From: Escherichia coli
GTDB lineage: Bacteria; Pseudomonadota; Gammaproteobacteria; Enterobacterales; Enterobacteriaceae
Length of the DNA: 64,000 nucleotides
Reading direction: 5' to 3' (one strand)
Assembly: GCF_044647545.1 (NCBI RefSeq)
Contig: NZ_CP172818.1
Positions 32,990-38,842 of the stretch are shown in pieces. Under the pieces are notes generated by a model. That model was not told where the DNA came from. It saw only the letters and a list, made by a program, of their open reading frames with translations, and did no database searches. Both the position numbers and the translations under genes were made by a program. The number at the start of each line of letters is the position of its first letter. The stretch's first letter is position 1.

Positions 32990-33733
32990 TTATAGCAGTG
33001 CCAGCAGGAAGACCAGTTCACCAAGCTCTATGGCTGCTCCCAGCGTATCGCCGGTTTGCCCGCCCAGCGTACGTTTGAGAAGCTGACCGAGGATGAAAAT
33101 CGCCACCATCGTCACCACCATAGCAGCCACACCATGCATACCCGGCAATAATACGGCAGCAAAAATAGCGGCTAAGCCGAGTGTGACGCAGGTTTGTCGC
33201 CCATCAATTTTGCCAATGAACACATTGCCAAGCCCTTCTTCCCGGGCATAACGATGACGATACATCAATAATGCGGCAGTCCCGCGGCTGATCGCACATG
33301 CTGCCGCCAGCGATGCAAGGATCGGTTCGCCACGCAGAGCCAACTCGCTTAACACCAAAATCTTTGCCAGTACAACAAAAATCAATGCCAGACCGCCGTG
33401 GGTACCTAAACGGCTATCACGCATGATTTCCAACATGCGATCGCGGCTACGTGCAGAAAATACGCCATCACAGGTATCAGCGAGGCCGTCCAGATGGAAT
33501 CCCCCGGTCATCAGCACCAGCACAAGTACGCTAAACAGTGCCGCCAGTGGTGCGCCACACCATGCCTGCAGCACCATGAAGACCAGCCCGCTAATCGCGC
33601 CAAGCAATAATCCAATCAAAGGAAAAGTAATAATACCGCGAGAATAATGCTCGAAATCCAGTCCCTGGGACCAGCGACGCGGTACAGGCAGACGCGTAAT
33701 AAATGAGAGCATCGCCCAAAATAATTTACTCAT
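32990..33733 (-). CDS. cobS: Cobalamin 5'-phosphate synthase
   Basis: Polytopic ORF, internal start [16 protein letters not shown]... Confidence 0.85.
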
Positions 33734-34275
33734 TTGATTTTTACTCCAATACCCGAAACCACCAGCCATACTTCATTTGCCGCAGCGGCCAACTGCTGAT
33801 TTACCCGCCCGGCAATATCACGAAAATGTCGTGCCAGACGACTCTCCGGCACAATCCCCATTCCCACTTCGTTAGTCACTAATACAACCTTTGCGGGGCA
33901 ACGTTGGCAGGCAGCAATCAACGACTGAATCTCAGCATTAATCGCCTGTTCCATCGCCTGATAATCCCATTCATCAGGGTCTTTATCGCCGCCATAATCA
34001 AACAACAGATTAGTCACCATTGTGGTAACGCATTCAAGCAACACAACCTCATTCGGGTTAATGTCTGCATGAATTAATTCATCAAGATGTTGCCAGCGCT
34101 CCACTGTGCGCCAGTGCTCCGGGCGGCCTTGCCGATGATGTTCTATCCGTGCAGCCATCTCATCATCAAGGATTTGCGAGGTAGCGATATACAGAACCTG
34201 TGAAGAGTCCCCAATAAGCGCCTCTGCGTGGCGACTCTTCCCGCTCCGTGCGCCCCCCGTCACCAAAATCATCAT
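33730..34275 (-). CDS. cobU: Adenosylcobinamide kinase / adenosylcobinamide-phosphate guanylyltransferase
   Basis: 181-aa ORF with P-loop GGARSGKS. Confidence 0.85.
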
Positions 34276-35691
34276 ACCGACTCCTGATTCAAATGTATGA
34301 TGGTATTCATTGAACAGAACAATGGATCCCCCACCGTTGCTGACCGCAAAACATTTACGCGATTAATACTGCGCGTAATATAATTAAAAATCCAGCATTC
34401 TCAATCCATTACGAAATAAGATGGCATTACGGAATAGCCAGACTTTCTCGTGTTAACGTCCGACAAAATGCGTCATTGACAGCGGTTTCTGTGGATTGAC
34501 ACATTTCATTCAGATAATGAATTAATGCTACTGCCGGAACAACCAGCAAACGGGCATTGTGTTCTGAAATCCAGGCTATTGATTCAACGTCAGCGACAGA
34601 TCTGCGCTGTAAAAGAACTTGTAAAACAACGTAATAGAATTATCCGGAATGGTGGCCTAGAACACCACAATTTCGCTCTCTCGGTAAGGCACTGTCACAG
34701 CATTCAACAGAATGTGACTTGCCAGATTTATTAGCGCCACCAGATGTTTAACCGGGTAACCACGACCCAGTCGGGGATATATTCCATCTTCTCGCTGACA
34801 TCATCAAGAATAAAAAGGTTTATCACACTCAGAGCAACGTTCTTCAGCAGGCGGGATAATTCTTCAACATTTAGAAGATGTGTTATTAAAGGCATACAAA
34901 CTGGACGTATTGTATTTTCTTTTGGTGGTTGACCTAAGGTAGCAGTTTATCCTGATGCGCTGAGATTTCTGTAATATCTACGTCAACATTCTCCTCGAAT
35001 AGAAAATGCAGCCCCGGCAAGTGATTCACATTTTTTAACAAAACGTTGTTAGCGTGCCATTTTCAGAAGCTCTCCAAGAAAGCGAATTCTTTTCTCAAAT
35101 TCTGCATTCTCAGACACAGCTTTCTACTCCATGGTAATGGCCCAAATACGAAGTTGCTCAGGATCATTAGTGGTGCTGAGAAGTTAAATAACCATGCGGA
35201 GTACCACTCGTCATCACGTATTTATATATCATGAAGCTATTGTTGTGTTTTGTACATCAGTAGATATATTCTGATATACTCCTTTTGCTAGACATAACCT
35301 TTCACCTGCTTGCAAAGCTTCTGTGTTCTGACATTGCCAAATTGTTGCAATTCTGTATCCAGCCTTCTTTCAGTCATAGCTTCGGGCCGCGATAAGACTC
35401 ACTGATCTGACCCTGATTCCTCTTGCAGACTTTATAGACCAATTAAAATGCAGTTTCTGCAGGTCAACGTCTGACCATCATTGTCATCACTCTGGCCATT
35501 AGAGTAACCTTCTGCATTCATCCTTTTGTAAAAAGTTTATATTAGTATCAGCAATTAACCGGACCTGATACTGATATGAGTCTTACCGCATATACGGTCA
35601 ATTTCAGCAATTAATTACATTATCCACGCCAAAGTATTTGTCATCACAATGATGGTACCTTCTTTCAGACACCATTTTTTCAACTCCGTTT

Positions 35692-35732
35692 TCCACGGAC
35701 CGCACTCTTATGTCAAGAGTGCGGTCCGTGGA
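35692..35732. repeat. Perfect 18-bp inverted repeat with 5-nt spacer
   Basis: TCCACGGACCGCACTCTT-atgtc-AAGAGTGCGGTCCGTGGA; no T-run after it. Confidence 0.9.
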
Positions 35733-35883
35733 TACAACCAGAGACCGACTGACACGAGTCAGAGGAAACGACGGATATGTTCAGTCGTAAAATATCTATC
35801 AAAAAACATGATTAAGGTCAAAAATGTTTGATATTTACAATTTATGAAGATGACAATAATTATAGATATATGAGAACATAAAT

Positions 35884-35904
35884 GAAAATAATTATCATTA
35901 CAGC
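35884..35904 (+). promoter_or_regulatory. Fur-box-like sequence upstream of TonB-dependent receptor gene
   Basis: GAAAATAATTATCATTACAGC resembles Fur consensus GATAATGATAATCATTATC. Confidence 0.35.
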
Positions 35905-36254
35905 AATCATTTGTACTTTGTATTAATGAGGGATGAAATGTTATATAATATACCTTGTCGAATTTATATCCTTTCCACTCTGTCATTATGCATTTCTGGG
36001 ATAGTTTCTACTGCAACCGCAACTTCTTCAGAAACAAAAATCAGCAACGAAGAGACGCTCGTCGTGACCACGAATCGTTCGGCAAGCAACCTTTGGGAAA
36101 GCCCGGCGACTATACAGGTTATTGACCAACAAACATTGCAGAACTCCACCAATGCCTCCATAGCCGATAATTTGCAGGACATCCCCGGAGTAGAGATAAC
36201 AGACAACTCCTTGGCAGGCCGTAAACAAATCCGCATTCGTGGCTGGATTTGCCC

Positions 36255-38609: not shown

Positions 38610-38818
38610 TAGAATAAAACGATCAATATCTATTTTATCGATCGTTTATATCGATCGATAAGCTAATAATAACCTTTGTCAGTAACATGCACAGATACGT
38701 ACAGAAAGACATTCAGGGAACAACAGAACCACAATTCAGAAACTCCCACAGCCGGACCTCCGGCACTGTAACCCTTTACCTGCCGGTATCCACGTTTGTG
38801 GGTACCGGCTTTTTTATT
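38610..38818 (+). ncRNA. isrC: Small RNA IsrC region (5' leader upstream of flu); boundaries approximate
   Basis: Position between yeeP and flu; ends at intrinsic terminator CCGGTATCCAC-gttt-GTGGGTACCGG plus T6 (38780..38818). Confidence 0.4.
38621..38656 (+). promoter_or_regulatory. Three GATC sites (Dam/OxyR phase-variation switch of Ag43)
   Basis: GATC at 38621, 38640 and 38653 within aacGATCaatatctattttatcGATCgtttatatcGATCgataag, about 200 bp upstream of flu. Confidence 0.75.
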
Positions 38819-38842
38819 CACCCTCAATCTAAGGAAAAGCTG

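What the first reader, a model, noticed from the sequence alone, without database searches (positions are those of the whole stretch)
35692..35732. Perfect 18-bp palindrome in the unannotated cobU-yoeA spacer
TCCACGGACCGCACTCTT-atgtc-AAGAGTGCGGTCCGTGGA is a perfect 18-bp inverted repeat. It would form a very stable hairpin, yet has no U-tract, so it is not a typical intrinsic terminator. It lies about 180 bp upstream of the yoeA start and near a Fur-box-like sequence. It could be a high-affinity dimeric protein-binding site, an RNA structure, or a MITE-like remnant.
Basis: seen in the sequence. Interest (0 to 1): 0.4.

Follow-up and report, generated by a model that had tools for sequence, protein, structure and literature searches.

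The report
Hairpin inside a dead transposase gene
The perfect 18-bp palindrome is real, but it lies inside the decayed tail of an insertion-sequence transposase gene (pseudogene yoeH in E. coli K-12) and most likely arose as a replication copying error, so it is ordinary genomic debris, not a regulatory site.

Summary
Arms 35692-35709 and 35715-35732 are perfectly complementary around a 5-nt loop. This is the longest perfect hairpin in the window, and no T-tract follows it on either strand.

The interpretation mostly fails. The palindrome sits on the minus strand inside the last ~57 codons of a dead ISEc11-like (IS1111/IS110-family) transposase gene (nhmmer E=2.5e-67). Curated MG1655 annotates this remnant as pseudogene yoeH. 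The remnant's seekRNA non-coding region and an IS66-family remnant follow it.

Intact relatives are not palindromic here. They carry only an 8-bp inverted repeat, from codons I-H-G and P-W-I. The window differs by a 10-nt frameshifting deletion, an in-frame stop in the loop, and a clustered CCT->TGC change at a Pro conserved in 103 of 106 relatives. Each change makes the arms complementary. That is the signature of quasipalindrome correction by template switching in an already dead gene (inferred).

The element is single-copy, found only in part of E. coli, absent from 100,044 species-representative genomes, and absent upstream of orthologous receptors. About 440 genomes carry a SNP in one arm. 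IS2 and IS3 have inserted into it.

Published work shows both strands are transcribed here, so an incidental RNA effect is not excluded. Interest is low.

The parts
35692..35709 (.). Left arm of the palindrome (TCCACGGACCGCACTCTT). On the minus strand it encodes E-C-G-P-W of the transposase remnant.
   Evidence: codon alignment; nhmmer alignment.
35710..35714 (.). 5-nt loop ATGTC. On the minus strand it contributes to the codons ACA TAA, and the TAA is an in-frame stop at 35710-35708. In strain KE51 an IS2 has inserted here with the 5-bp target duplication TGTCA (35711-35715).
35715..35732 (.). Right arm (AAGAGTGCGGTCCGTGGA). On the minus strand it carries codons I-H-G, then the 10-nt deletion point (between 35725 and 35724), then T-A-L-L. 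G35721 is A in about 440 E. coli genomes. An IS3 junction follows 35724 in many genomes.
35564..35736 (-). C-terminal remnant (~57 codons) of an ISEc11-like IS1111/IS110-family transposase gene. It has 2 in-frame stops and a 10-nt frameshifting deletion. It corresponds to pseudogene yoeH (b4641) of MG1655. No transposase homology is detectable upstream of 35736.
   Evidence: tblastn 48% identity over 54 aa, E=1e-9; nhmmer E=2.5e-67.
35305..35563 (-). Remnant of the same IS's 3' non-coding region, which encodes the seekRNA in ISEc11. It is 67-73% identical to intact relatives and lacks the last ~17-20 nt of the right end.
   Evidence: role of the NCR from PMC11187229.
34759..35313 (-). IS66-family remnant (tnpB 3' end and tnpC 5' part) abutting the IS1111-family remnant. 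It overlaps pseudogene yoeG (b4640) of MG1655.
35859..35888 (-). Sigma-70 promoter-like site TTTTCA-18-TATAAT reading leftward through the palindrome. The same hexamers and spacing are listed as the constitutive yoeH promoter in a genomic SELEX study.
   Evidence: PMC3946193.

Best explanation
The palindrome is a mutational by-product inside a dead insertion sequence. It is not a purpose-built site.

Shown: window 35736-35305 (minus strand) is the 3' end of an ISEc11-like IS1111/IS110-family element. It comprises the last ~57 codons of the transposase (pseudogene yoeH in MG1655) and the downstream seekRNA region, and it is truncated at both ends.

Shown: intact relatives read ...ATC CAC GGA GCA AGG GCG GCA GCA TTA CTG ACC AAA GAA CCT GGN CCG TGG ATA... 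(F-I-H-G-A-R-A-A-A-L-L-T-K-E-P-G-P-W-I). This contains only an 8-bp inverted repeat, ATCCACGG...CCGTGGAT, 37 nt apart.

Inferred: after the gene was inactivated, or as the inactivating event, replication template switching on this quasipalindrome made the arms perfect. The nascent strand folded back and copied the opposite arm. One tract changed CCT to TGC, the exact complement of the Ala codon GCA in the other arm. Another replaced 12 nt by CC, a net deletion of 10 nt, and re-joined at the pre-existing CCGTGGA repeat.

Inferred: today the element has no dedicated function. Because the region is transcribed on both strands, the hairpin may incidentally affect RNA 3' ends or RNase III sensitivity. 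As DNA it may attract IS3-family insertions.
For: - Homology: tblastn of an IS110-family transposase aligns 54 aa in one frame to 35725-35564 (48% identity, E=1e-9). An nhmmer profile of four complete elements hits 35736-35305 with E=2.5e-67 and places a 10-nt gap inside the right arm.
- The relatives have Pfam DEDD_Tnp_IS110 and Transposase_20 domains and are about 92% identical to a cluster named 'ISEc11 family'.
- MG1655 annotates the same 53 codons as pseudogene yoeH.
- The relatives' DNA is not palindromic at this point: 5 of 18 positions complementary.
- In the 106 of 121 relatives that a pattern search captured, the motif length is constant and Pro is present in 103. None has Cys.
- The minus-strand 5' arm differs from relatives only synonymously (GCA CTC TTG ACA versus GCA TTA CTG ACC, both A-L-L-T). 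The opposite arm has four adjacent changes, ACCT to GTGC, equal to the reverse complement of that arm.
- The 10-nt deletion (a frameshift) and the TAA in the loop are incompatible with a working gene. The perfect palindrome therefore post-dates, or caused, inactivation.
- All 18 pairs are Watson-Crick, with no G-U. This is what DNA copying predicts, whereas RNA-level selection would tolerate G-U pairs.
- My estimate for neutral drift alone is ~4e-9. It assumes 33% divergence, 12 pairs kept and 6 pairs gained.
- The mechanism is established in E. coli: PMC7202029 and PMC5941160.
- Evidence against a dedicated function: single copy in only 2755 of 5426 E. coli genomes; 0 hits in species-representative genomes; no counterpart upstream of 15 orthologous receptors; no Rfam match; an arm SNP in ~440 genomes; IS2 in the loop and IS3 in the arm.
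Against: - The nearest intact relatives are only ~67% identical in DNA, so the true ancestor is unknown. It could already have been more palindromic or carried Cys.
- At least two switching events, or one complex event, are needed to explain the pattern.
- A fold-back inverted duplication at the truncation point is not rigorously excluded. Transposase homology stops only 4 nt beyond the palindrome, and the support for native origin of the right arm is modest: 9 of 15 nt plus four identical amino acids.
- Lack of function is inferred, not shown. The G35721A SNP leaves a G-U wobble in the minus-strand RNA, so it does not argue against selection on that RNA.
- An RNase III-sensitive, Rho-terminated RNA antisense to yoeH has been published (PMC6847712). 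I could not place its ends or iRAP#6850 relative to the hairpin.
Confidence: 0.7

Rival explanations
1. Exapted RNA hairpin. Whatever its origin, the 18-19 bp stem now acts in RNA. It could be the RNase III cleavage determinant of the yoeH sense or antisense transcripts. It could be the exonuclease-resistant 3' end left after Rho-dependent termination. It could be part of the RNA-polymerase-binding aptamer iRAP#6850.
For: Both strands are reported to be transcribed. A constitutive sigma-70 promoter TTTTCA-18-TATAAT is listed for yoeH (PMC3946193) and coincides with the scan hit at 35888-35859. A ~150-200 nt RNA antisense to yoeH is seen only in an rnc mutant and ends at iRAP#6850 by Rho (PMC6847712). 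The hairpin is very stable on both strands (-36.7 and -36.6 kcal/mol). A C-rich, G-poor stretch follows it on the + strand. The arm SNP keeps a G-U pair in the minus-strand RNA.
Against: That paper never mentions a hairpin (0 occurrences) and explains the RNase III sensitivity by sense-antisense pairing. I could not obtain coordinates for the RAP, the transcription start or the 3' end. The SNP breaks the pair in the + strand RNA (-30 versus -36.7 kcal/mol). The element is missing or IS-disrupted in about 59% of E. coli genomes. A perfect DNA palindrome with no G-U pair points to a DNA-level origin.
Confidence: 0.15
2. One-step fold-back (snap-back) inverted duplication. It would have occurred at the break that truncated the IS, so the right arm would be a fresh reverse-complement copy of the left arm and not native coding sequence.
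For: Detectable transposase homology ends at about 35736, only 4 nt outside the right arm. The palindrome therefore abuts a rearrangement junction. The I-H-G match of the outer right arm is uninformative, because in relatives I-H-G is already the complement of P-W-I.
Against: The right arm plus loop still reads T-A-L-L-T in the correct frame. It is contiguous with E-x-G-P-W-x-T-E-L-K-K and differs from relatives only synonymously. Identity is 9 of 15 nt against about 4 expected. The flanking TGTA resembles the relatives' TTTA. The model does not explain the CCT->TGC change in the supposedly original arm.
Confidence: 0.1
3. Operator for a dimeric regulator, or an insulating terminator, serving the Fur-regulated TonB-dependent receptor gene (yoeA / Hma-type) 206 bp downstream.
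For: It lies upstream of the receptor promoter region and is a perfect dyad.
Against: It lies inside a transposase pseudogene. Fifteen orthologous receptor loci in Kluyvera, Citrobacter, Raoultella, Enterobacter, Klebsiella, Providencia and Izhakiella show no similarity and no comparable hairpin upstream. A plasmid copy of the receptor keeps homology only from about 35753-35760 onward and so lacks the palindrome. There is no U-tract.
Confidence: 0.03
4. Native functional element of the IS (for example a transposase-binding or translational control hairpin), or a member of a dispersed repeat or MITE family.
For: It lies in mobile-element DNA.
Against: Four intact relatives lack it (5 of 18 positions complementary). 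In the 106 relatives captured by the motif search, the motif has constant length and none has Cys. It requires a frameshift and contains a stop codon. It is single-copy in every E. coli genome that has it. There were no hits in phages, no hits in plasmids other than near-identical E. coli DNA, and none in 100,044 species-representative genomes.
Confidence: 0.02

Closest known systems
ISEc11 and ISEc11-like elements (IS1111 family, DEDD transposase guided by a seekRNA/bridge RNA)
   Same: The transposase C-terminal codons and the 3' non-coding seekRNA region are collinear with the window's minus strand 35736-35305. As with several relatives, it lies next to or within IS66-family DNA.
   Different: Only the last ~30% of the element survives. 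It has 2 stops, a 10-nt frameshift and ~33% DNA divergence. The N-terminal DEDD domain, the left end and the tip of the right end are absent. The perfect palindrome is absent from all intact relatives examined.
Quasipalindrome-associated template-switch mutation hotspots (thyA hotspot and lacZ QP reporters in E. coli; T4 rIIB; yeast CYC1)
   Same: A pre-existing imperfect inverted repeat. Clustered substitutions and an indel, each equal to the complement of the opposite arm. Together they convert it to a perfect repeat (mechanism in PMC7202029, PMC5941160).
   Different: This is a natural, fixed, 18-bp product inferred from comparison with relatives ~33% diverged. It is not an observed mutation event, and more than one switch seems to be needed.
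Rho-independent (intrinsic) terminator
   Same: A G+C-rich stable stem-loop in otherwise A+T-rich DNA.
   Different: No U-tract on either strand. The stem is longer than the other perfect hairpins in the window, whose stems are 10-14 bp, several with A/T-run flanks. It lies inside a pseudogene, not after a gene.
REP/BIME palindromic units as targets of IS3-family elements such as IS1397 (from my own knowledge, not tested here)
   Same: An extragenic hairpin-forming palindrome with an IS3-family element (IS2) inserted exactly in its loop in one strain, and IS3 inserted in an arm.
   Different: It is single-copy and unrelated in sequence to REP. The insertions seen are a few events, and no specificity was demonstrated.

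Membership tests
IS1111/IS110-family insertion sequence (ISEc11-like) | C-terminal transposase region (Transposase_20 domain and tail) homologous to family members | tested here: met
   tblastn E=1e-9, 54 aa in one frame. nhmmer E=2.5e-67. Relatives carry PF02371 and PF01548. The match covers only the tail after the Pfam domain, and it is a pseudogene.
IS1111/IS110-family insertion sequence (ISEc11-like) | N-terminal DEDD catalytic domain (PF01548) | tested here: not met
   No homology upstream of 35736 in local alignments against four relatives; scores were at shuffle level. This is a truncated remnant, not a functional member.
IS1111/IS110-family insertion sequence (ISEc11-like) | Long non-coding region downstream of tnp that encodes the seekRNA (IS1111 type) | tested here: met
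   Window 35563-35305 aligns to the 3' non-coding region of four relatives at 67-73% identity. The relatives share a conserved predicted fold of 63 pairs, 8 of them with compensatory changes. The role of this region is taken from PMC11187229.
IS1111/IS110-family insertion sequence (ISEc11-like) | Intact ends (subterminal inverted repeats) flanked by the specific target | tested here: not met
   Homology stops ~17-20 nt before the relatives' right end and joins IS66-family DNA. The left end is absent.
Quasipalindrome template-switch product | An imperfect inverted repeat pre-exists in the ancestral sequence | tested here: met
   Relatives carry ATCCACGG...CCGTGGAT (8 bp) from codons I-H-G and P-W-I. 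If the deletion is applied to their sequence, 12 of 18 positions pair.
Quasipalindrome template-switch product | The changes are clustered tracts identical to the complement of the opposite arm, and all of them raise complementarity | tested here: met
   ACCT->GTGC in one arm is the reverse complement of GCAC in the other. Twelve nt are replaced by CC, the complement of GG. All 6 previously mismatched pairs were corrected and none of the 12 matched pairs was lost. The ancestor is approximated by ~33%-diverged relatives.
Quasipalindrome template-switch product | Direct observation of the switch, or dependence on replication and exonuclease genotype | not testable with these tools
   Needs a reporter carrying the reconstructed ancestor.
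Intrinsic terminator | Stem-loop followed by a U-rich tract | tested here: not met
   The + strand continues TACAACCAG and the - strand continues AAAACGGAG. The scan does not call it.
Dispersed repeat or MITE (REP/BIME, ERIC and similar) | Many copies per genome | tested here: not met
   One locus per genome. It occurs once in the window. There were 0 hits in 100,044 species-representative genomes.
Known structured RNA families (Rfam 15) | Covariance-model match at or above the gathering score | tested here: not met
   Only sub-threshold chance hits, for example mir-5444 at 21.5 bits against a gathering score of 90.
Cis-regulatory operator of the TonB-dependent receptor gene | Conserved upstream of orthologous genes | tested here: not met
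   Fifteen orthologous loci (66-78% amino-acid identity) show no DNA similarity and no comparable hairpin within 1.2 kb upstream.

The most novel reading that the evidence does not exclude
The hairpin, born by template switching in IS debris, has been co-opted. It would be the actual RNase III target or the 3'-end stabiliser (or part of iRAP#6850) of the published yoeH sense/antisense RNA pair. As a DNA cruciform or hairpin it may also be a preferred landing site for IS3-family elements such as IS2 and IS3.
Probability: 0.15. Interest if true: 0.35.

Novelty: new member of a known kind. Interest (0 to 1): 0.15.

Why it matters
The finding matters mainly as a clean negative. A striking perfect palindrome next to a virulence-associated iron-receptor gene turns out to be a fossil in a dead insertion sequence, so it should not be pursued as an operator or riboregulator without further evidence.

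Two small positive points follow. First, it is a natural, fixed example of quasipalindrome correction in which the pre-existing repeat can be traced to two conserved protein motifs (I-H-G and P-W-I). Second, it offers a simple alternative or additional explanation for the RNase III sensitivity of the published yoeH-antisense RNA, and this explanation is cheap to test.

Tried and rejected
- Exact-arm scan of 100,044 species-representative genomes: 0 hits.
- Rfam at E<=10: only noise over the palindrome.
- Phage collection: no match.
- Plasmid collection, palindrome region: only near-identical E. coli DNA, apparently chromosomal sequence filed as plasmid, plus one plasmid whose homology starts downstream of the palindrome.
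- Receptor orthologues in 15 other Enterobacterales loci: no upstream similarity or equivalent hairpin. A conserved cis-regulatory role is rejected.
- Word-indexed protein search with the 59-aa pseudo-protein: no candidates.
- Exhaustive HMMER search with the 54-aa remnant: one hit, another fragment of the same family. No relative closer than the ISEc11-like group was found.
- Search for transposase homology upstream of 35736: none. My by-eye impression of homology out to ~35790 was dropped.
- Fur consensus with 3 or fewer mismatches: none in the window.
- I first read the G35721A SNP as evidence against any structural selection. Folding showed it keeps a G-U pair in the minus-strand RNA, so that argument was weakened.
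- I could not obtain Lybecker 2014, Sedlyarova 2017 or the supplements of PMC6847712. The positions of iRAP#6850, the antisense transcription start and the dsRNA region relative to the hairpin remain unknown.

Full report
OBSERVATION

The sequence is as described. TCCACGGACCGCACTCTT (35692-35709), ATGTC, AAGAGTGCGGTCCGTGGA (35715-35732) form 18/18 complementary pairs. With up to 3 mismatches allowed, the arm occurs nowhere else in the window (0.03 expected).

It is the longest perfect hairpin in the 64 kb. The next longest has a 14-bp stem, and several of the shorter ones have the A/T-run flanks of terminators. Thirty block-shuffles gave at most 11 bp. As RNA the 49-nt segment folds at -36.7 kcal/mol on the + strand and -36.6 kcal/mol on the - strand, with z = -10 and -11.6. 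No T-run follows on either strand, and the terminator scan does not call it.

CONTEXT

The window is E. coli K-12-like DNA. In order it contains:
- cobT-cobS-cobU, with cobU at 33730-34275 on the minus strand;
- a 1.66-kb decayed spacer;
- a TonB-dependent receptor gene starting at 35938 and interrupted by IS2.

In uropathogenic strains the receptor is intact at 715 aa, with Plug and beta-barrel domains. The island next to cobU is known in the literature as the one carrying the haem receptor Hma (PMC7545054). I did not verify that this receptor is Hma itself.

WHAT THE PALINDROME LIES IN

A low-stringency BLAST of the spacer against E. coli genomes gave, besides thousands of copies of the same locus, two distant matches. 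One was to IS66-family genes (window 34900-35313). The other was to an 'IS110 family transposase' (window 35310-35596).

Three results place the palindrome inside that transposase remnant:
- tblastn with the transposase aligned its last 54 residues (AALLTKEPGPWITELKK...HVSIR) in a single frame, with two stops, to the minus strand 35725-35564 (48% identity, E=1e-9).
- I fetched four intact 340-aa relatives: one E. coli chromosome, two E. coli plasmids and one Pantoea plasmid. An nhmmer profile of their complete elements gave one hit, E=2.5e-67. Profile positions 988-1434 of 1469 matched window 35736-35305 on the minus strand.
- The relatives carry PF01548 and PF02371 and are about 92% identical to a cluster named 'ISEc11 family'.

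ISEc11 is an IS1111-family element whose 3' non-coding region encodes the target-selecting seekRNA (PMC11187229).

The remnant therefore has two parts. The transposase C-terminus occupies 35736-35564. The seekRNA region occupies 35563-35305; it is 67-73% identical to relatives, which share a conserved predicted fold. The right-end tip is missing and the remnant abuts IS66-family debris. No transposase homology exists upstream of 35736.

The curated MG1655 record annotates exactly these codons as pseudogene yoeH (b4641), equivalent to window 35564-35722 on the minus strand, with an identical translation. One paper describes yoeH as a non-functional transposase (PMC12363166).

HOW THE PALINDROME AROSE (INFERENCE)

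On the minus strand the palindrome reads:
T ATC CAC GGA | CC GCA CTC TTG ACA TAA GAG TGC GGT CCG TGG A.

Relatives read:
ATC CAC GGA GCA AGG GCG GCA GCA TTA CTG ACC AAA GAA CCT GGN CCG TGG ATA.

Relatives are not palindromic here (5 of 18 positions complementary). They do contain an 8-bp inverted repeat, ATCCACGG...CCGTGGAT, formed by the conserved motifs I-H-G and P-W-I.

The window differs from relatives in four ways:
- (a) A 10-nt deletion: 12 nt are replaced by CC. This shifts the frame.
- (b) An in-frame TAA in the loop.
- (c) GAA CCT has become GAG TGC. These are four adjacent changes, and they turn Pro into Cys. In the 106 of 121 relatives whose motif a pattern search captured, Pro occupies this position in 103, none has Cys, and the motif length never varies.
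- (d) GCA CTC TTG ACA replaces GCA TTA CTG ACC. These changes are purely synonymous (A-L-L-T in both).

Point (d) indicates that the inner part of this arm is native coding sequence that diverged while the gene was still under selection. In (c), GTGC is exactly the reverse complement of that arm's GCAC. In (a), CC is the complement of the GG in the native GGT CCG TGG, and the deletion re-joins at the pre-existing CCGTGGA repeat.

If the deletion is applied to the relatives' sequence, 12 of 18 positions pair. In the window all 6 mismatched pairs are corrected and none of the 12 matched pairs is lost, despite ~33% overall divergence. By my estimate, neutral drift would achieve this with probability ~4e-9.

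Tract-wise changes that each copy the opposite arm are the hallmark of quasipalindrome correction by replication template switching. The mechanism is documented experimentally in E. coli (PMC7202029) and has been proposed to explain the excess of perfect inverted repeats in proteobacterial genomes (PMC5941160).

The perfect form needs a frameshift and contains a stop codon. It therefore arose in, or created, a dead gene, and it is not a native IS feature.

At least two switches, or one complex event, are needed. A one-step fold-back duplication at the nearby truncation junction is a weaker alternative: it explains neither the in-frame T-A-L-L-T nor the Pro-to-Cys tract.

IS IT DOING ANYTHING?

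Evidence against a dedicated role:
- The locus is single-copy and present in 2755 of 5426 complete E. coli genomes, intact in 2211.
- The arm is absent from 100,044 species-representative genomes.
- Fifteen orthologous receptor loci in seven other genera have no similar DNA and no comparable hairpin upstream.
- A plasmid-borne copy of the receptor keeps homology only from about 35753-35760 onward and so lacks the palindrome.
- About 440 genomes carry G35721A, checked in three of them. This makes the DNA repeat 17/18 and mismatches the + strand RNA. It leaves a G-U pair in the - strand RNA, so it is neutral evidence for that strand.
- IS elements have disrupted it. IS2 sits exactly in the loop with the 5-bp duplication TGTCA in strain KE51. 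IS3 is joined after 35724 in a class of genomes (at most 544) in which the downstream receptor region is also deleted.

Evidence that leaves the question open comes from the literature, which shows transcription of both strands:
- A constitutive sigma-70 promoter TTTTCA-18-TATAAT is assigned to yoeH (PMC3946193). It is identical to the scan hit at 35888-35859 on the minus strand.
- A ~150-200-nt RNA antisense to yoeH is detectable only without RNase III and is terminated by Rho at the RNA-polymerase aptamer iRAP#6850 (PMC6847712).

That paper never mentions the hairpin, and I could not obtain the coordinates needed to place it relative to these features. An incidental or exapted RNA effect, such as an RNase III site or a 3'-end stabiliser, therefore remains possible. 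I rate it at about 0.15.

VERDICT

The best explanation is a quasipalindrome-corrected hairpin in the yoeH remnant of an ISEc11-like IS. Confidence is about 0.95 for the location, about 0.65 for the mechanism, and 0.7 for the explanation as a whole. It is a new instance of known kinds of thing, and interest is low.

Noticed in passing
window 35681-35759; L001 4226, L004 4255, L041 1535-2866, L007 ~4000: IS3-family insertions cluster around the palindrome in different strains. IS2 sits exactly in the loop (5-bp duplication TGTCA). IS3 is joined after 35724 in the right arm. An IS629-like end lies at 35757, an unidentified IS-like element ends just upstream of ~35753-35760 in a plasmid copy (family not determined), and an IS3-family break lies at 35681. 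Five of the nine breakpoints I saw in an 890-bp query fall within 79 bp. Sampling was not systematic.
   Followed up: partly
window 35305-35563 (-): Remnant of the seekRNA/bridge-RNA-type non-coding region of the dead IS1111-family element. Four intact relatives share a conserved predicted fold of 63 pairs, 8 with compensatory changes. Several of these pairs are broken in the window copy.
   Followed up: partly
L036 2149-3573; hits H84-H89: ISEc11-like elements are repeatedly found inserted at the same point near the 5' end of IS66-family tnpC, which fits RNA-guided target choice. In the window the IS1111-family remnant instead abuts the IS66 tnpB 3' end, while the usual tnpC site is uninterrupted.
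   Followed up: partly
window 35859-35888 (-) and 35846-35902: A strong minus-strand sigma-70-like promoter (TTTTCA-18-TATAAT, 10/12) overlaps the + strand promoter-like sites and the Fur-like boxes of the receptor gene. The best Fur match is 15/19 at 35884-35902. It equals the 'yoeH' constitutive promoter in PMC3946193. Divergent or overlapping promoters could interfere with each other.
   Followed up: partly
window 38619-38822 (+): Full-length Rfam match to IS102 RNA (RF00124), 252.6 bits, E=4.9e-49. This is what I recall as the isrC sRNA region upstream of the Ag43 gene (my knowledge, not tested).
   Followed up: no
window 34276-34900 versus L044 2660-3854: The window lacks the IS5H copy that MG1655 carries between yeeH and yoeG. 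It is otherwise 100% identical over 34900-35790 to K-12 derivatives such as J53. PGAP calls a cobalamin-biosynthesis gene fragment and an IS4-family fragment next to cobU.
   Followed up: no
window 35733-35752: About 20 nt (TACAACCAGAGACCGACTGA...) lie between the end of detectable transposase homology (35736) and the start of homology with a plasmid-borne receptor upstream region (about 35753). Their origin is unknown. The stretch is C-rich and G-poor on the + strand, and a small 5-bp hairpin (CTGAC/GTCAG, 35749-35762) straddles its right-hand boundary.
   Followed up: no
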